This document shows, piece by piece, positions 669 to 38,960 of a DNA stretch of 39,612 nucleotides; the stretch's first letter is position 1; each line of letters starts with the position of its first letter. Below the pieces are notes generated by a model. The model searched no databases and was not told the origin of the DNA. It saw nothing but the letters and a program-made list of their open reading frames with translations. Source of the stretch: a virus (lineage: Duplodnaviria; Heunggongvirae; Uroviricota; Caudoviricetes); the IMG/VR virus record IMGVR_UViG_3300022758_000169. One strand, written 5' to 3'. The position numbers were made by a program, and so were the translations under genes.

Positions 669-823
669 GGTGGTTATCTCCACTTAGTGATTTTAATCAC
701 CACCGCAACGCCAATTACTGGTGGTGAACTGGACAAGGTTGGCGTACCGGCCTAAGTGGTACCGGCGTCCTTTCGGACCCCTGCCCAGCCCACCATAATT
801 CGGATATAGCTGTGCTTAACGCA

Positions 824-945
824 TAAAAAAACCACGTCTGGCGTGGTATGCGCCACTTAGTAACCCGGGACGCCAATCCCGGCACTGGATTTTGCCAGTG
901 CCCGATTACTATGGCACAAGAGGAGTGCGATGTAAATTTACCGAA
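824..945 (-). ncRNA. candidate structured antisense small RNA (c4-like), copy A
   Basis: Promoter TTGATT-N17-TATTAT on minus strand, predicted three-way-junction fold, hairpin loop UUGGCGU, terminator hairpin CCACG/CGTGG followed by U7; homologous to 38686..38806. Confidence 0.45.
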
Positions 946-952: not shown

Positions 953-1099
953 TAATAGACGAAGATAAATATCAAAATCAACCATATTTGGTTAAGGTGT
1001 ATAAAAGAGCCACCAGCGAGAAATTGTACCGCGATGTAAAATAACGAGCATCTGCTGGCTTACAACCAGCGATGTTTCAAACTTGTCACTACTATCAAC

Positions 1100-16732: not shown

Positions 16733-16822
16733 ATCAATGACTCCGTACGCAATTAAATTATTACCAATTTAACCACATATGATTTATTTATCGTAGACAG
16801 TTGACATTTAACGCGCGAATTA

Positions 16823-17159: not shown

Positions 17160-17236
17160 GTGGCATTAGCTCAGTTGGACAGAGCAACCGCCTTCTAAGC
17201 GGTTGGTCGCAGGTTCGAATCCTGCATGCCACGCCA
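17160..17236 (+). tRNA. tRNA-Arg (anticodon UCU), phage-encoded
   Basis: Manual cloverleaf: acceptor GTGGCAT/ATGCCAC, D-stem GCTC/GAGC, anticodon stem ACCGC/GCGGT with loop CTTCTAA, T-arm GCAGG-TTCGAAT-CCTGC, discriminator G, encoded CCA. Confidence 0.85.
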
Positions 17237-29564: not shown

Positions 29565-29888
29565 AATCACGCCTGACGAATCGCGATTATCTCGCTATTG
29601 GTATTGCAGAGATTGCTGGACTCAATGGCGCATGATTTGACAATGCCGCCAGAGCTATCGCATACTGACCGCACTAGAAAACAAACAGCGGTCATCCGCA
29701 CCCGATAGCTTTGCGGCTTTTTTATGCCTGCAATCTGGCATAGTCACATCCGTACAAAGGTCGGGTGGAGAGGCGTAATACAACACCCGAAAGGGGAATA
29801 TGCCCGGAGCTACTGTTTGTGCTCTAGTTGACACCCGATCACCAGCTACTAACTGGTTTTCGTAACTAAAAACAAACAGGAGGTCATC

Positions 29889-31937: not shown

Positions 31938-31974
31938 TACATAAAAACAAAAACCCTCTGTAAAAACAGAGGGT
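31938..31974 (-). terminator. rho-independent terminator after the lysis cassette
   Basis: 9-bp stem AACCCTCTG/CAGAGGGTT followed by a U-rich tract on the minus strand. Confidence 0.55.
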
Positions 31975-32123
31975 TGAATTAGTATCTGAATAGGAATGAC
32001 TTGCTATGAGTTAGCTGTTAATCATTCCCACTCAATTATTTACGACAACCATAACCAATTGACTGATAACATTTTTCCAAACCTCAACTTTTCCCGTACC
32101 GTTTTATATACCGTCACCGGAAA

Positions 32124-32621
32124 TCAGTGCCACGATTTTTTCTTCTTCAGTGAATCGTATTGCTGCTCGCAGAATTCCCCTGCGATACGATACTTTTCAG
32201 CCTCAGCTGCTGTTGCGTTGTAAACTCGGTTGCTTTCTTCAAGCATGTCGGCGAGCACACCGATGACCTTGCTGGCTGGCGTGCCAGGGGGGAAAGATCC
32301 GGTATAGTGTTCGGCGAGCCGCCTGGTTTTGTCAAGCTCGGCGCGCATGCTGTCAGCAGCGGAATTAGCATACTCAGCATCAGCACGCGCCGCATCGATA
32401 CGGGATTGTGCTTCACGTTCAATTTGTGTTTTCTCCTGCTCACGCTGTGACCTTAACTTATCATCAGCCTGTTTCTGATCTTCCTTCGCCTGCGCATACC
32501 CGGCATCGTACTGACGGATGCCGTGCACATTCCAGGCAACAACTCCTGATATGACCAGAACAGCAAGCATCGCCACGATAAGTAACTGTTTACGGTATGC
32601 TTTTACAAATGCCCAGATCAT
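32124..32621 (-). CDS. i-spanin (Rz-like)
   Basis: N-terminal TM helix, long charged coiled-coil body; immediately downstream of endolysin with ATGA overlap. Confidence 0.6.
32147..32395 (-). CDS. o-spanin (Rz1-like) embedded in a different frame
   Basis: Lipoprotein signal with lipobox LLTAC, Pro-rich mature part, fully inside the i-spanin gene. Confidence 0.5.
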   Translation of the reverse strand: MRRVLMLSMLIPLLTACAPSLTKPGGSPNTIPDLSPLARQPARSSVCSPTCLKKATEFTTQQQLRLKSIVSQGNSASSNTIH

Positions 32622-33247
32622 ACCGCCAGTACCTTACTTGCTGTGATGTACCGCGCACGCCGGTCGTCGATACCGTTTCTGCCACCATTGATAATCAGAG
32701 TTACACGTACAATATCGCCGGTATACTTCATGCATCCTTTGCTGGCGAAGAACCACGCCGCGCTACGAGCCGCATATTCGTCCTGCGCCAGCAGTTCAGG
32801 GCTCTCCAGCAGGTCAACCTTCAGACCGTTTCCGCAATCACGATAGTTATTCAAACCGGTAATCTGGATAAGTCCGCGCCCTCGGTAATTCCAGCCATCA
32901 CCAGGGGCATTGTTCCCCATGCGTTTGCTGTATACCAGATTTGCGATCGCGCGCTGGCGCTCAAGTGGCAATGGTGGTTCACCAGCACGGCGCCCCAGTG
33001 CATTAGCCTGCCCCTGAGTGAGACGCCCAGCCCGAACGAAGTTAGCCAGTCCGCTGACACTGTAGTTGAAATTCTCCTGCAACCTGGTGAAGCTCCCAGA
33101 CTCATGCCCGACTTGAGCAATAAACATTGCCTGATCTTCTGCTTTGCTGATACCAAACTCTTTCATCGCAGAAGTTATATGCGAGAACCAGCGTGCGGCC
33201 AGTGCCTCGCTGATACCAGCAGCTCGCTGGAATTGTTTAATCTCCAT
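32618..33247 (-). CDS. endolysin, glycoside hydrolase family 19-like
   Basis: Start MEIKQFQ at 33247; motifs [10 protein letters not shown] and [11 protein letters not shown]. Confidence 0.75.
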
Positions 33248-33545
33248 GTTTAGACCTCGATACTTTAAAAATTTGAACGACGTTACCGCGCGTTTTAATA
33301 ACCGCAGCCAGCATGACAGCGTTGATAATGACCTCAGATAAATCCACAGCCATTGGCGTACGTAACCAGATTGCATAGGCGACTCGAACAGGAATACTGG
33401 CCGCAGCAACAATCAGGAAATAAGCAAGCCATCCTCCCCACCTTCGATGTTGAGAGCCGTTACGCCGGAATGTGACAACGCGAATTGCTATGCCAGTGCA
33501 AATAACTGCATTGGTGATAAGCAAAAAAAACTCATGCGTTACCAT
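33237..33545 (-). CDS. membrane protein (holin or antiholin candidate)
   Basis: 102-aa ORF with predicted TM segments between holin and endolysin. Confidence 0.45.
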
Positions 33546-33936
33546 CGTCTTTTCTCCCCGGAATTAACTCGCGTGGATTATCGGAACGGTGATAGAGCCA
33601 TATACCAATACGCACAGCGACAATTGCTGACACGAATGCGCCTGCAGAGAAAACAATCCCTTTTTCAAAAGAGTCCTGCGTGATGGTAGGGATCAGGCTG
33701 GCTATGCCGATAAGAATTGATGCTGCTGGTTTGTAAAAGAGAAGGCCACAAAGAAAGCTGAGCATCGAAAGGAGCACCCGGCGACGGATGGGGTACTCTA
33801 CTGCAGAGGTAACAAAAATTACCGCCCCAGCCAAAGCCCCTAAAGCAACCTCCGGAGGGACACCTGCAATAACCGCAGCAAGAGAACCAAAACTAAGCAA
33901 CTGATTTAATTGCTCACTTGTTACTTGAGCAGACAT
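33532..33936 (-). CDS. holin candidate
   Basis: SD AGGAGAAAG; 134-aa ORF with several predicted TM helices; first gene of the lysis cassette. Confidence 0.55.
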   Translation of the reverse strand: MSAQVTSEQLNQLLSFGSLAAVIAGVPPEVALGALAGAVIFVTSAVEYPIRRRVLLSMLSFLCGLLFYKPAASILIGIASLIPTITQDSFEKGIVFSAGAFVSAIVAVRIGIWLYHRSDNPRELIPGRKDDGNA

Positions 33937-34217
33937 ACTTTCTCCTGTTTACTATCTATAAGCCAGTCAATTATTGATGACTAACCCCGCATAGTAAACC
34001 ATATATGAATCATTATTGTTCCATATCATATATCTCAATAAAAGTACTAATGATTTTACAGAACGAGCCAGCAGAGTGGGGGCAGTTGTACAGGAACCAT
34101 AGACTTAATTTTGTATTTAATAATGCTATGGTGTAATAAACCTGAACATGTATTTAAAATACGTACTGATTCATGATAGAATTCAAAGATAACTTTTCAC
34201 CAACTCCGTTTTTGATA

Positions 34218-34244
34218 CCCGCAATATTTTGCGGGCTTTTTTTT
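34218..34244 (+). terminator. plus-strand intrinsic terminator with no annotated upstream plus-strand gene
   Basis: CCCGCAA-uauu-UUGCGGG followed by U8; overlaps the tailspike stop codon on the other strand. Confidence 0.45.
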
Positions 34245-37200
34245 AACGTTCTTCCAGAGACTGAACCCGCTCTTTTATCTTATCCATTTCTCTGCGCTGC
34301 CATGCTGCCTCGATATAGAATAAGAGATCAGGTCTGACCCCCCATCTAGATCCTGCTGGCGTTATTTCAACGCGCTCAATGATGTCTTCTATTACCATCA
34401 CTGGATTATCATCCTCATCAACAATGATGCTCCCGTCATTATCAGTCAGCGGCATTTCCCTTTGGCCAGTAATGACGTCATCATATACTGCGGGATAATC
34501 GTCATAGCAAAGAAAGGCATAGCGGCATGTTGTGCTTTCTTCTTCCATGAGTCCGTGAGAAATAAGAACATCACGAAGTTGCTGCGCGATTACACCATGA
34601 TGTATCCTCGCCCCTTCTTCCCCCTTTATAGCGACAGCGTTCAGCCATTTATAAGCGATATACCTGACGTCACCCCAGGCATCCAGCAATGCTTCGTCAG
34701 GAGAGACCGGCTCTGTCTTTAATGTTCCGTCACTGGTAACCACAGGATTGGAGCCAAGATAAACTGTCGAGAACCTGTTTCCCGGACCACCAAGAGCATT
34801 TACATTATCAAGATAAGGTTTAACATCTCCGTTCTCAAAAAGATGTTCGAGTGCGTTATATACCGCGCGACGTGGAGTACTGCTTCCGGAACCATGCAAC
34901 GTTATCATTGCACCATCTGCTGAAGACGTTGTTTCACCGCCGCTAACGATTAATCTCTGAGCGGTAACATCATCAGACGGTACTTTCTTCGCAATAATGG
35001 CGTAATTACCCTCAAGTTTGACTTCCGCGCGAACTTGTCCTGATGTACCTGCATGGACAGTCAGTGACTGGACGGCAACATCATCTGTGAAATCAACGGG
35101 TACAGGAACCGTCCTCACGCCTGACGTCGACATAAAAGTAGGAAGCGTTCTGTTAGGAGTGGCTCCGTAGACAAAATCCCTTGAAACAAATTCTTCCTGT
35201 TTAATTTTCACCCTGAAACAATACAAATCAGCCGGGTGACCATCGTGAACATAAGGATATTTTCTGTTGTTATCCCCTATGCTCCATGGGTTTAGAAAGT
35301 CTTCCCCACCGAAAATGTAGTACAGCCAGTTGTCTTTGATACAAACTGAACCAACACCAACCGCAGAGTTAACTATTCCGCCCTGATAAATCTGATCAGT
35401 AACATTAACCCACTCTACATTATCCAGACTCCACTCATTGACGTTAACTCTGGTCATAAATGTTCTTGGATAATTTCCTGCATAACGGTTATCAGGTTCT
35501 CCTCCTTCCCACTCACCAAATGCGCGCTCACTGCCAAAAATAATCAGCTCATCGCCAACTTTGGCAAAAGGAAGGTTTGAGTGATGAACATTATTTGGGA
35601 AGCGAAGAGAATTCCATGATGTACCTAAATCAGAGCTTCTGTGCAATGAACTACCGGGTTGAGTACTTAATGTCCCCCTGGTCGTCAGATACAGAATGCC
35701 ATCATAATATTTTACACATGGCTCAGATGCATTCGCCTCATATTCTGCAGGTATGCGTCTGCGAACAAAGCTACCAGGAGAACCGAAAGCATCAGAGAAA
35801 TAGAGTATCCCAAGCTCGCGTGGACCAATATCACCATTATGGTAGCCAACAGCAAAACTGTTATCGCTAATCGTCGCAAAACTGTGAATCTCAGTAACAG
35901 GAGTGCTTCCGTCAACAAAAGAAGGAATAGTTCCAAGACTGGTTTTTCTCCATGGTGACGAGTGAAATGATGTACCAAAACTCCAGTATCTACCCTCGTT
36001 ATTCTGATCCACATCCTGGGTATTTTGCGTCGTAACTGTAAAAGTATTTTTATCAATAACAGTAGTCACCGTCATATTCCCGGTAACACCTGTAACACCA
36101 GAGTTTGAGAAGTTGACAAAATCACCAGCAAATAATCCGTGATCAGTAATGCGAATATAAGCGACTTGCTGATTTGCTGCTTTCGTTATACCACCATAAA
36201 CGCGAAGGCTGCGACTCATTGGGCGATCCCACAACTCTGCAACCTGCAGTTTATTTCCGCTCACGGTCCGCGTCTCAATTACAGCAAAAAGGCGATTTCT
36301 GACAACCCCCATACTCATGCAGTGATAGTTAACTGTGGGATAGTTTTCATGTAAATCTGTAAGCCATTCCGGCGTTGTCCAGGTCTTCCCGTCATCTCCT
36401 GAGCGAACCCATGCAACATGGAGGTTATTTACACCATGGCGGTCTCCAGCCATAAAAGGCGCATAGATGACATTGTCATATACAAACGTTTTATCCTGCG
36501 TCCAGGCGTTGTACCACGGTGTATCTGTAATTTTAAATAACTCTCCCTGGATAAAATCTTCAGAAGCATAAAAAAGAGGCTGACCCGGTATTCTCTCAAA
36601 TAAAAAACGAGCATTTTTAAATCGACTGACATCCGGAAGAGTTGATACTTTAAAAGTAAGCCCTAATCCGTCAATTTTATAACCTGGAGATGAGGCTTCA
36701 AGGCACGCGCTTATTGCAGTGGAATCGTCATTTATACCATCACCAACAGCTCCAAAATCTTTGGGGCTAATAGCATCACGCATTTTATCCTGGAACGTTC
36801 GGTACACAGCCCCAGAACCATACTGAATAAACCAACCAAAACCACCAACAACCCCGGCGATTGCAGCATCGACATAATTACGCATTGAGCGATTATTTAC
36901 AGCGTCCTGCTCAAATGATGGATCTGCAAGGTTAGAAATTTTGTTTTGCTTTGCATCGTAATATTTTGCAAGCAAAGATGGTTTCATCAATGCACGTCTG
37001 AACCACCCAAAACATTGCTGGATCAGCATCGTCAGGTAGTCAAAGGCATCTTCATGCACTTCGGGGAAAAATTTTCCCTGATTGCGAAGGTCTGTCTCCT
37101 GCACTACATCAAGCACACGATCTATCGTAATTCGCCATCCAGTAGCAAGCGGAGACGGAAGAACCACAGAACCGCCACTATAAGTGCCCGCCCCAGTTAC

Positions 37201-37362
37201 CGTATAACCGGTATCCAGAACCAATTCTGTTACGTTTCCGTTCAGGTCAGACACCTGAACAACCAGGTCTGATTTTCTGAAAATTCGAAAAGTATACGGA
37301 AACGATGTCGTAACGCCGTTACCGGTGTATTCGTTGTGGTCAACTTCGGTTGAGACCGTCAT
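34243..37362 (-). CDS. tailspike with Asp-box (BNR) motifs and C-terminal self-cleaving chaperone-like domain
   Basis: 1039 aa; N-terminus MTVSTEVDHNEYTGNGVTTSFPYTF; Asp-boxes SGDDGKTW and SDLGTSW; C-terminal VVTSDGTLK with the Ser codon at 34732..34734. Confidence 0.8.
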   Translation of the reverse strand: MTVSTEVDHNEYTGNGVTTSFPYTFRIFRKSDLVVQVSDLNGNVTELVLDTGYTVTGAGTYSGGSVVLPSPLATGWRITIDRVLDVVQETDLRNQGKFFPEVHEDAFDYLTMLIQQCFGWFRRALMKPSLLAKYYDAKQNKISNLADPSFEQDAVNNRSMRNYVDAAIAGVVGGFGWFIQYGSGAVYRTFQDKMRDAISPKDFGAVGDGINDDSTAISACLEASSPGYKIDGLGLTFKVSTLPDVSRFKNARFLFERIPGQPLFYASEDFIQGELFKITDTPWYNAWTQDKTFVYDNVIYAPFMAGDRHGVNNLHVAWVRSGDDGKTWTTPEWLTDLHENYPTVNYHCMSMGVVRNRLFAVIETRTVSGNKLQVAELWDRPMSRSLRVYGGITKAANQQVAYIRITDHGLFAGDFVNFSNSGVTGVTGNMTVTTVIDKNTFTVTTQNTQDVDQNNEGRYWSFGTSFHSSPWRKTSLGTIPSFVDGSTPVTEIHSFATISDNSFAVGYHNGDIGPRELGILYFSDAFGSPGSFVRRRIPAEYEANASEPCVKYYDGILYLTTRGTLSTQPGSSLHRSSDLGTSWNSLRFPNNVHHSNLPFAKVGDELIIFGSERAFGEWEGGEPDNRYAGNYPRTFMTRVNVNEWSLDNVEWVNVTDQIYQGGIVNSAVGVGSVCIKDNWLYYIFGGEDFLNPWSIGDNNRKYPYVHDGHPADLYCFRVKIKQEEFVSRDFVYGATPNRTLPTFMSTSGVRTVPVPVDFTDDVAVQSLTVHAGTSGQVRAEVKLEGNYAIIAKKVPSDDVTAQRLIVSGGETTSSADGAMITLHGSGSSTPRRAVYNALEHLFENGDVKPYLDNVNALGGPGNRFSTVYLGSNPVVTSDGTLKTEPVSPDEALLDAWGDVRYIAYKWLNAVAIKGEEGARIHHGVIAQQLRDVLISHGLMEEESTTCRYAFLCYDDYPAVYDDVITGQREMPLTDNDGSIIVDEDDNPVMVIEDIIERVEITPAGSRWGVRPDLLFYIEAAWQRREMDKIKERVQSLEER

Positions 37363-37466
37363 GTTAAATCTCCAGATAGTCGCAGCACCCGTTGCGCCGC
37401 ATATCTGGTTATTCTATTACCTGGAAAACCACATATGGATAGAAAGGCTGTAAATACGAATAGATA

Positions 37467-38693: not shown

Positions 38694-38806
38694 ATTTACA
38701 TCGCACTCCTCTTGTGCCATAGTAATCGGGCACTGGCAAAATCCAGTGCCGGGATTGGTCTCCCGGATTACTACAGAGGCACATATGCCGCATAAGCGGT
38801 TTTTTT
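38686..38806 (+). ncRNA. candidate structured antisense small RNA (c4-like), copy B
   Basis: Predicted fold: outer stem 38713..38718/38778..38783, stem 38721..38727/38766..38772, hairpin 38729..38750, hairpin 38751..38764 with loop UUGGUC, then terminator hairpin plus U7 (38800..38806). Confidence 0.5.
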
Positions 38807-38960
38807 ATGTGTAAAGCGCACCTATTCTATGGTGGGCTGTGTGGGGGCACCGAAAGGTGCGCCGGGTTCCTTTGTAGCCGGTAAGACCAACTCTGCACAG
38901 TTCACCACCATCTGATTGGTCTCAGCGGTGGTGATTAACCTAACTACAAAGGTGATCGCC

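What the first reader, a model, noticed from the sequence alone, without database searches (positions are those of the whole stretch)
33937..34244. AT-rich 300-bp spacer ending in a strong plus-strand terminator with no plus-strand gene
All flanking genes are on the minus strand, yet the hairpin at 34218..34235 is followed by U8 on the plus strand only. A small plus-strand transcript (an sRNA or a holin-antisense RNA) may originate in the AT-rich region upstream of the lysis genes; candidate promoter elements TTGTAT and TAATAA lie around 34114..34142.
Basis: inference. Interest (0 to 1): 0.4.

Follow-up and report, generated by a model that had tools for sequence, protein, structure and literature searches.

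The report
One-way terminator in empty conversion-gene slot
The hairpin-plus-T8 is a real, canonical plus-strand transcription terminator, and it sits in the spot where related phages carry a backwards-facing surface-modification gene, but in this K1-capsule phage that spot holds no gene, so it is most likely an ordinary boundary element and not a proven small RNA.

Summary
A 306-nt AT-rich spacer (33937..34242, 30-36% GC) lies between the endosialidase tailspike gene and the lysis cassette, both on the minus strand. It ends in a perfect 7-bp hairpin (34218..34235) followed by C and T8. No terminator of this quality appeared in 300 shuffles of the window. The window is a phiV10/epsilon15-type temperate phage (Uetakevirus), 99.5% identical to vB_EcoP_ZX5.

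In relatives, this position is a hypervariable slot. In 12 of 29 slot classes, and in phiV10 itself (oac), it holds a plus-strand acyltransferase or O-antigen gene that converges on the tailspike gene. Some of these genes end in a plus-strand or bidirectional terminator overlapping the tailspike stop codon. The window's lineage has the terminator but no gene.

I found no ORF with support, no gene remnant, no Rfam family and no homologue outside this one prophage lineage. The would-be sRNA body is polymorphic and has no target in the phage.

My best reading is a one-way terminator that caps short non-coding plus-strand transcription from the AT-rich slot and lets late transcription pass. An sRNA remains possible but unsupported. 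A holin-antisense RNA does not fit the geometry. Interest is low.

The parts
34218..34235 (+). Terminator hairpin CCCGCAA-TATT-TTGCGGG (7-bp stem, 5 G-C pairs, 4-nt loop). It becomes 8 bp in copies with G at 34217.
   Evidence: the stem arms are invariant in 29 distinct copies, and the loop occurs in two inverted states, TATT and AATA
34237..34244 (+). T8 tract (U8 in plus-strand RNA). It overlaps the tailspike stop codon. On the minus strand it reads as A8 upstream of the hairpin.
   Evidence: T7 in one copy and one extra T in another
33937..34242 (.). 306-nt AT-rich intergenic spacer, which is the 'conversion-gene slot' of this phage genus. The part from about 34010 onward is specific to this K1 prophage lineage.
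33996..34008 (+). AAACCATATATGA, a motif conserved across the genus at a fixed distance from the lysis-cassette start. It marks the left boundary of the swapped cassette. In relatives it is followed by TTACC-N5-GGTGA, which is missing here.
34153..34182 (+). Best plus-strand promoter candidate, TTTAAA-18-TAGAAT with an extended -10 TG. The predicted start near 34189 would give an RNA of about 56 nt ending at the terminator.
   Evidence: consensus match only; lies in the invariant block
34111..34139 (+). It is weak because the -10 lacks T at position 6.
   Evidence: not listed by the scan
34173..34200 (-). Minus-strand promoter-like site, GTGAAA-16-TATCAT. Its -10 overlaps the plus-strand -10, so this may be a bidirectional promoter facing the lysis cassette.
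   Evidence: consensus match only
34080..34186 (.). 107-nt block with no polymorphism in 29 distinct copies. It contains both plus-strand promoter candidates and a 7-bp inverted repeat, ACCATAG...CTATGGT.
   Evidence: P about 0.016 for an event-free run this long; the block was chosen after seeing the data
34243..37362 (-). Endosialidase (K1 capsule) tailspike gene. Its stop codon abuts the terminator.
33532..33936 (-). First gene of the lysis cassette (Phage_holin_8 membrane protein).

Best explanation
The hairpin plus T8 is a working-type intrinsic terminator that acts in one direction only. It sits at the junction between the tailspike gene and the genus's hypervariable receptor-modification slot. 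In many relatives this slot holds a plus-strand gene that converges on the tailspike gene and ends at this same spot. In this K1-specific lineage the slot carries only about 215 nt of lineage-specific AT-rich DNA and the terminator.

Proposed mechanism:
1. RNA polymerase starting at promoter-like sites in the AT-rich slot moves on the plus strand. The best candidate is 34153..34182, which may be the back side of a bidirectional promoter facing the lysis genes.
2. Polymerase is released at 34237..34244, leaving short non-coding RNAs of about 55-100 nt. This keeps antisense transcription out of the tailspike and late structural genes.
3. Late transcription on the minus strand meets only a hairpin with no U-tract, so it can read on into the lysis cassette.

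Shown here: the terminator's anatomy and that it is not a chance feature, the absence of any gene, the slot architecture in relatives, and the restriction to one lineage.

Inferred, not shown: that plus-strand transcription occurs here, that termination happens, and the insulating role. Whether the short RNA has any function of its own is unknown. Nothing here says it does.
For: - The terminator is canonical and far beyond chance.
- The U-tract is on the plus strand only.
- phiV10 has its O-acetyltransferase gene oac on the plus strand in this exact slot (Acyl_transf_3).
- Among 29 classes of the slot from 80 IMG/VR loci, 12 carry a plus-strand gene of about 260-650 aa convergent on the tailspike gene. 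Of the 10 scanned against Pfam, 7 are Acyl_transf_3, one is Wzy_C and one is DUF2142.
- L207, L203, L206 and L156 end such genes with a plus-strand or bidirectional terminator. In L207, L203 and L156 the T-tract runs into the tailspike stop codon, as it does here.
- Homology to relatives stops right after the AAACCATATATG motif, and the rest of the spacer is unique to this lineage.
- Promoter-like sites are enriched in the 3-kb region around the spacer: 12 against 4.5 +/- 2.3 in shuffles, with 6 of them inside the spacer.
- All changes seen at the terminator keep or strengthen it. These are A34217G, which adds a base pair, a loop inversion, and T8 to T7.
- Host read-in is already stopped by the yfgI terminator at the attachment site, so the terminator must serve a local transcript.
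- ZX5 lysogeny changed no tested host phenotype, which is consistent with an empty conversion slot (PMC9782041).
Against: - No transcript data exist, and the promoter is only a consensus match in AT-rich DNA.
- The genus-typical element next to the AAACCATATATG motif (TTACC-N5-GGTGA) is absent from this spacer.
- Most slot classes have a GC hairpin right after the tailspike stop whatever the T-tract orientation: plus, both, minus or none. The hairpin may therefore belong primarily to the tailspike mRNA.
- No remnant of a lost gene could be found.
- Divergence among copies is too low to show selection on the stem. With 6 events in the 56-nt end segment, the chance that none hits the 14 stem positions is about 0.18.
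Confidence: 0.45

Rival explanations
1. A regulatory small RNA carried as a gene-less moron. This would be an Hfq-type sRNA of about 56 nt (or about 100 nt from the upstream promoter candidate), expressed from the prophage in K1 ExPEC strains and acting on host or phage mRNAs through the single-stranded region 34189..34216 (AUAACUUUUCACCAACUCCGUUUUUGAU).
For: - An extended -10 promoter candidate lies 36 nt upstream of the hairpin.
- The predicted RNA has an unstructured 5' part, a U-rich stretch, a terminator hairpin and U8. By my own knowledge of the literature this resembles the Hfq-binding module of enterobacterial sRNAs.
- The region has the AT-rich, lineage-specific, moron-like composition.
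- The promoter-containing block 34080..34186 is invariant in 29 copies.
- Other phage sRNAs (isrK, C4) are present in the same genome.
Against: - No Rfam match.
- No homologue outside one prophage lineage.
- The seed region carries common polymorphisms: C/A at 34201 at about 50%, and A/G at 34187.
- No phage target stands out. The best duplex is -19.5 kcal/mol against -19.0 +/- 2.2 for shuffled seeds.
- Host targets could not be searched.
- ZX5 lysogeny gave no phenotype in the tested assays (PMC9782041).
Confidence: 0.15
2. The hairpin serves the minus strand. It would be the 3' stem-loop of the tailspike mRNA, acting as a weak terminator, pause site or decay barrier. The T8 would then be incidental: an A-run after the TAA stop as read on the coding strand.
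For: A GC-rich hairpin directly follows the tailspike stop in most slot classes, including classes with no plus-strand gene. Some of these are oriented for the minus strand (L201, L189, L205) and some have no T-tract on either side (L168, L204, L215, L190). Terminator-like motifs downstream of receptor-binding-protein genes are also reported for lytic genera (PMC10408124).
Against: On the minus strand the hairpin is followed by UAUCAAAAAC, which is not a U-tract, so canonical termination should be poor. Six T's beyond the two of the stop codon are unlikely to be incidental. Late transcription probably needs to reach the lysis cassette.
Confidence: 0.15
3. A silent relic. The terminator and AT-rich DNA came in with the tailspike cassette from a donor phage, where a convergent gene ended here. 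Nothing is transcribed on the plus strand today and the element is drifting neutrally.
For: - The spacer evolves about as fast as or faster than its neighbours: 16 events in 306 nt, against 37 in 1458 nt of tailspike and 17 in 405 nt of the membrane-protein gene.
- The lineage is young (at least 97.9% identity), so an intact relic is expected.
- The left junction lies exactly at the conserved recombination-boundary motif.
Against: - No donor arrangement or gene remnant was found in phages, IMG/VR, metagenomes or 5.8 billion proteins.
- The 107-nt invariant block hints at constraint (P about 0.016).
- Promoter-like sites are present.
Confidence: 0.25

Closest known systems
phiV10 oac cassette (O-acetyltransferase between the lysis cassette and the tailspike gene), and analogous plus-strand acyltransferase genes in other Uetakevirus prophages
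   Same: Same genus and same slot. The transcription unit has the same orientation: opposite to the late genes, convergent on the tailspike gene and ending at its stop codon. In several relatives the unit is closed by a plus-strand or bidirectional terminator overlapping the tailspike stop codon.
   Different: There is no gene here. There is no sequence similarity to any of those cassettes beyond the AAACCATATATG motif. The TTACC-N5-GGTGA element that precedes those genes is missing.
Morons of lambdoid phages, that is, an extra promoter-gene-terminator unit inserted between conserved genes (concept from the literature, recalled from my own knowledge)
   Same: It is inserted at a module junction, absent from relatives, has deviant AT-rich composition, and has its own terminator and promoter-like sequences.
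   Different: A moron is defined by carrying a gene. No ORF here has any support.
Prophage-encoded Hfq-binding sRNAs such as DicF and IsrK
   Same: Short size, prophage location, and a Rho-independent terminator with a long U tail preceded by a U-rich stretch. isrK itself is present twice elsewhere in this window.
   Different: No family match, no conservation beyond one lineage, a polymorphic seed, no identified target and no expression evidence.
Terminators between convergent genes, unidirectional or bidirectional
   Same: It lies tail-to-tail against a gene end, and its T-tract overlaps the neighbour's stop codon, as in L207, L203 and L156.
   Different: Only one of the two convergent partners exists, and only one side has a U-tract.

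Membership tests
Intrinsic (Rho-independent) terminator | G+C-rich stem of about 5-14 bp with a 3-8 nt loop | tested here: met
   7-bp perfect stem, 5 G-C pairs, 4-nt loop, -11 to -12 kcal/mol
Intrinsic (Rho-independent) terminator | U-tract immediately 3' of the stem | tested here: met
   On the plus strand: C followed by U8. On the minus strand the condition is not met (UAUCAAAAAC).
Intrinsic (Rho-independent) terminator | Transcripts actually end there | not testable with these tools
   No RNA data are available. This needs Term-seq, 3' RACE or a reporter assay.
Moron / lysogenic-conversion cassette | Inserted at a module junction, absent or different in close relatives, with deviant base composition | tested here: met
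Moron / lysogenic-conversion cassette | Carries a protein-coding gene | tested here: not met
   No supported ORF. The start codon is lost in some copies. No homologues. No remnant of the slot genes of relatives.
Moron / lysogenic-conversion cassette | Own promoter active in the lysogen | tested here: inconclusive
   There is a consensus match at 34153..34182. The genus-typical promoter/operator element is absent.
Hfq-dependent trans-acting sRNA | Membership of a described RNA family | tested here: not met
   Rfam 15: nothing at gathering score, and only terminator-driven weak hits
Hfq-dependent trans-acting sRNA | Conserved seed region and identifiable target | tested here: not met
   The seed is polymorphic. 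No phage target scores above the shuffled-seed background. Host targets were not searched.
Hfq-dependent trans-acting sRNA | 3' module made of a U-rich stretch, a hairpin and a poly-U tail | tested here: met
   GUUUUUGAU, hairpin, U8. That this module binds Hfq comes from my own knowledge of the literature and was not tested.
Hfq-dependent trans-acting sRNA | Stable transcript detected, bound by Hfq | not testable with these tools
   No published sRNA or transcription-start data for this locus were found.

The most novel reading that the evidence does not exclude
The K1-specific Uetakevirus prophage, found in 72 of 5426 complete E. coli genomes (the listed hosts are largely extraintestinal human and poultry isolates, several typed K1), has filled its receptor-modification slot with a gene-less moron. 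This would be a prophage-expressed Hfq-type sRNA of about 56 nt (34189..34244), driven by an extended -10 promoter in the invariant block 34080..34186, that regulates host or phage mRNAs.
Probability: 0.15. Interest if true: 0.45.

Novelty: new member of a known kind. Interest (0 to 1): 0.2.

Why it matters
This is mainly a matter of correct annotation. The region should be read as the vacant receptor-modification slot of a K1-specific phiV10-like prophage, closed by a one-way terminator, and not as an established sRNA gene. If the short plus-strand RNA exists and is functional, it would be a new prophage sRNA in K1-type extraintestinal E. coli. That would be of moderate interest and is easy to test in strains that are already sequenced. 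The comparative result has some practical use for prophage annotation and tailspike engineering: the tailspike and the slot behind it swap together as one cassette, bounded by the conserved tailspike N-terminus and the AAACCATATATG motif.

Tried and rejected
- Rfam at gathering and permissive thresholds gave only terminator-driven noise.
- The terminator pattern in 185,579 species genomes gave 120 or more unrelated generic terminators, for example Photobacterium repeats, with no shared flanks.
- Spacer patterns in IMG/VR and in metagenomes found only the same prophage context.
- I tested whether the spacer came from the siaK1-neuO intergenic region of the P22-like K1 phage CUS-3. The local alignment score (23.5) is inside the shuffle range (24.5 +/- 3.9), so this is rejected. 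Only the tailspike C-terminus is homologous.
- A tblastn search of 24 slot proteins from relatives against the spacer gave no hit that stood out from noise among the listed results; the best listed E-value was about 0.07 on a 400-nt target.
- The 51-aa stop-to-stop plus-strand frame, searched against 5.8 billion proteins, found only itself.
- A blastn search of the spacer against 62 other slot sequences matched only the AAACCATATATG motif region.
- The small plus-strand ORFs (43, 54 and 21 aa) are rejected as genes.
- Duplex search of the putative seed against phage translation-initiation regions gave nothing above background. A first attempt over the whole window timed out.
- Read-in from the host gene yfgI as the source of plus-strand RNA is rejected. 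The host terminator at the attachment site comes first, and the terminator under study lies about 2 kb further in.
- A 7-nt direct repeat ACCCGCA (33985 and 34217) was considered as a target-site duplication and rejected. About 5 such repeats are expected by chance in 400 nt, and the conserved motif lies inside the supposed insert.
- Literature searches for sRNA or transcription-start data on K1 strains, or for transcription data on this phage, found nothing on this locus.

Full report
WHAT THE WINDOW IS

The window is essentially a complete temperate phage genome of the phiV10/epsilon15 type (genus Uetakevirus). The 1.4 kb around the finding is 99.5% identical to Escherichia phage vB_EcoP_ZX5.

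Around the finding, every gene is on the minus strand:
- a 1039-aa endosialidase (K1 capsule) tailspike, 34243..37362;
- a Phage_holin_8 membrane protein, 33532..33936;
- a Phage_holin_3 holin, 33237..33545;
- a GH19 endolysin and Rz;
- a strong minus-strand terminator at 31975..31952;
- the attachment-site core, and then the integrase.

THE OBSERVATION

The spacer 33937..34242 is 306 nt long and 30-36% GC, against 45-51% on either side.

It ends with CCCGCAA-TATT-TTGCGGG (34218..34235), then C, then T8 (34237..34244). The last two T's are part of the tailspike stop codon. The consensus scan reports 7 pairs, 5 G-C pairs and a 4-nt loop. The hairpin is worth -11 to -12 kcal/mol, z = -3.4.

With strict criteria the whole window has three such sites on both strands. 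Three hundred block-wise dinucleotide shuffles had none. On the minus strand the hairpin is preceded by A8 and followed by UAUCAAAAAC, so only the plus strand has a U-tract.

There is no credible plus-strand ORF. The 43-aa and 54-aa ORFs have no Pfam match. The 43-aa ORF loses its start codon, or an internal Met, in some copies. Its extended frame has no homologue other than itself among 5.8 billion proteins.

WHERE ELSE THE SPACER OCCURS

The spacer from about 33962 to 34271 is found in these places only:
- three phage records;
- 72 of 5426 complete E. coli genomes, with hosts largely extraintestinal human and poultry isolates, including IHE3034, APEC O1 and several K1-typed APEC strains;
- a dozen IMG/VR contigs;
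- four metagenome contigs.

It is always in the same prophage context and always at least 97.9% identical. Homology to other members of the genus stops about 25-90 nt upstream of the lysis-cassette start. Homology to other endosialidase genes (CUS-3 and others) resumes at high identity 27 nt inside the tailspike gene.

No Rfam family matches. RefSeq annotates nothing there.

WHAT RELATIVES HAVE AT THIS POSITION

This comparison is the informative part.

In phiV10, the space between the lysis cassette and the tailspike gene is occupied by oac. This is an Acyl_transf_3 O-acetyltransferase gene on the opposite (window-plus) strand, and it ends 12 nt from the tailspike stop.

I fetched 80 IMG/VR loci through the membrane-protein gene and clustered their upstream regions into 29 classes.
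- Twelve classes carry a plus-strand gene of about 260-650 aa that starts 150-500 nt from the lysis-cassette start and converges on the tailspike gene.
- Of the ten I scanned, seven are Acyl_transf_3 (two fused to SGNH), one is Wzy_C, one is DUF2142 and one is unknown.
- Other classes carry minus-strand genes (TL-2011b, EC.W1-9, phiv142-3) or nothing.

The literature agrees. [quoted passage not shown]

The position is therefore a hypervariable receptor-modification slot that is swapped together with the tailspike's receptor-binding part. The conserved tailspike N-terminus (MTVSTEVDHNEY...) is one boundary. A conserved motif, ACACAATAAACCATATATGG, at +54..+76 from the lysis-cassette start is the other. 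It lies at 33996..34008 in the window.

Several of the plus-strand genes end in a terminator placed exactly like the one under study.
- L207 has GCGGGGTCAATGCCCCGC followed by TTTTTTATTTT, running into the tailspike stop codon.
- L203, L206 and L156 have bidirectional versions.

The window's terminator is thus the positional and orientational equivalent of the 3' end of a slot cassette, but the cassette has no gene.

IS IT A REMNANT OF A LOST GENE?

I could not show this.
- A tblastn search of 24 slot proteins against the spacer gave only noise.
- A blastn search against all other slot classes matched only the conserved motif.
- The CUS-3 region between siaK1 and neuO is not homologous, with an alignment score inside the shuffle range.
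- The translated frame has no relatives.

The element that follows the conserved motif in most relatives is TTACC-N5-GGTGA, sometimes with an extended -10-like TGATAnnAT. It is absent from the window's spacer. If plus-strand transcription occurs here, it must use a different promoter.

PROMOTER CANDIDATES

Promoter-like sites are enriched in the 3-kb region scanned around the spacer (32500..35500): 12 found against 4.5 +/- 2.3 expected. Six of them lie inside the spacer.
- The best plus-strand site is TTTAAA-18-TAGAAT with an upstream TG (34153..34182). It predicts a start near 34189 and a 56-nt RNA, AUAACUUUUCACCAACUCCGUUUUUGAUA followed by the hairpin and U8.
- Its -10 overlaps a minus-strand -10 (TATCAT, 34178..34173). 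This may be a bidirectional promoter whose other face points at the lysis cassette.

All of these are consensus matches in AT-rich DNA. None is evidence of function.

POPULATION VARIATION

In 29 distinct copies I count about 16 mutational events in the 306-nt spacer. This is a density at or above that of the neighbouring genes: 37 in 1458 nt of tailspike and 17 in 405 nt of the membrane-protein gene. There is no overall constraint.

The events are unevenly placed:
- ten in 33937..34079;
- none in 34080..34186;
- six in 34187..34242.

An event-free run of 107 nt or more has P of about 0.016 under uniform placement. The block was chosen after seeing the data, so this is only a hint. The block holds both plus-strand promoter candidates.

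The putative sRNA body is the most variable part, with C/A at 34201 at about 50% frequency and A/G at 34187. At the terminator, every change preserves or improves it:
- A34217G adds a G-C pair;
- the T-tract changes by one T;
- the loop exists in two states, TATT and AATA, which are reverse complements, with 34225 and 34228 always changing together. This indicates a loop inversion.

The stem arms are never hit, but with this little divergence that is not significant (P about 0.18).

TESTS OF THE sRNA READING

Points against:
- no Rfam match;
- no relatives to test covariation;
- a polymorphic seed;
- no complementary site among 109 phage translation-initiation regions, with the best at -19.5 kcal/mol against -19.0 +/- 2.2 for shuffled seeds.

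Point in favour: the U-rich stretch, hairpin and U8 resemble the known Hfq-binding 3' module. This rests on my own knowledge of the literature and was not tested here.

Host targets could not be searched. The ZX5 paper reports no change in the tested host phenotypes on lysogeny and does not mention this region (PMC9782041).

A holin-antisense RNA does not fit the geometry. Transcripts from either candidate promoter run away from the holin genes and end 300 nt upstream of them.

OTHER SOURCES OF PLUS-STRAND RNA

In the integrated prophage (IHE3034), the host genes yfgH and yfgI point into the Rz end of the prophage. A host terminator hairpin with a T-tract lies between yfgI and the attachment core. 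The phage carries a matching hairpin. Host read-in is therefore unlikely to be what the 34218 terminator stops.

A CAVEAT THAT SUPPORTS A RIVAL

Almost every slot class has a GC-rich hairpin directly after the tailspike stop, but the orientation of the T-tract varies:
- plus: the window class, L198 and L207;
- both: L203, L206 and L156;
- minus: L201, L189 and L205;
- neither: L168, L204, L215 and L190.

The common denominator is the tailspike 3' end. The hairpin may therefore matter for the tailspike mRNA as well.

In the window, however, the minus-strand side has no U-tract. Six T's beyond the two of the stop codon are unlikely to be accidental. At the least, the element was built as a plus-strand terminator.

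VERDICT

Its context explains it without invoking a new RNA gene. It closes the plus-strand side of a slot that carries backwards-facing receptor-modification genes in relatives and is vacant in this K1 lineage.

My preferred mechanism (confidence 0.45) is a one-way terminator. It caps short non-coding plus-strand transcription from the AT-rich slot and leaves late transcription free to reach the lysis genes.

The rivals are:
- a silent relic (0.25);
- a functional sRNA (0.15);
- a tailspike-mRNA 3' hairpin (0.15).

All four are separable by one strand-specific 3'-end mapping experiment. This is a new member of a known kind, and its interest is low.

Noticed in passing
window 938, 1524, 16823, 19968, 19986, 22660, 22722, 24624, 24962, 25012, 25724, 25786, 31872, 37467, 38586, 38679: The 15-bp palindrome TTACC-N5-GGTAA occurs at about 16-17 sites: 39 strand matches at up to 1 mismatch, against 3.0 +/- 2.2 in shuffles. 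It is usually preceded by ATTAT and lies just upstream of gene starts. It is probably the operator of a phage regulator scattered across the genome. The same element sits in the slot of most related phages but not in this window's slot.
   Followed up: partly
window 979..994, 16770..16785, 22679..22691, 24607..24619, 33996..34008, 37426..37438: A second recurrent motif, AACCAyATATGG, gives 9 matches against 1.6 expected. Five of the six sites (all except the slot copy at 33996..34008) lie within a few to about 40 nt of a TTACC-N5-GGTAA site. This suggests a composite promoter or regulatory module. The copy in the slot (33996..34008) has lost its partner.
   Followed up: partly
window 717..901 (-) and 38730..38912 (+): There are two inverted copies of an isrK plus C4 antisense-RNA pair, the P1/P7-type immunity RNA module. 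They face each other across the window ends, next to ash and anti-repressor genes in the ZX5 annotation.
   Followed up: no
window 34225 and 34228: The terminator loop exists in two states, TATT and AATA, which are exact reverse complements. The two positions always change together across 29 copies. This indicates a hairpin loop inversion, by template switching or a cruciform, and not two separate substitutions.
   Followed up: yes
window 29759..29848 (+) and 17160..17233 (+): There is an sRNA-Xcc1 family match (64.8 bits, gathering score 53) and a tRNA gene inside the phage genome.
   Followed up: no
window 31940..31990 and L002 2020..2060: The phage's late terminator hairpin next to the attachment core (aaaccctctgtaaaaacagagggtt) is nearly the same sequence as the host yfgI terminator at the integration site (aaaccctctgtagtaacagagggtt). 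Integration therefore leaves a terminator at the junction.
   Followed up: partly
L012 / L149 (IMGVR_UViG_2740892258_000015) and L227 (E. coli A33): In one IMG/VR prophage copy, homology to the tailspike gene stops about 100 nt inside its 3' end (window 34341) and unrelated genes follow. In strain A33 the endosialidase gene is annotated as frameshifted. These are decaying copies that keep the spacer and terminator.
   Followed up: no
L201, L189, L205 (slot classes of related prophages): Some relatives have a minus-strand terminator between the tailspike gene and the lysis cassette. This implies that the lysis cassette has its own promoter in the genus. The conserved region around AAACCATATATGG reads as TTAACC-17-TATGAT/TATAAT on the minus strand in most classes but not in the window.
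   Followed up: partly
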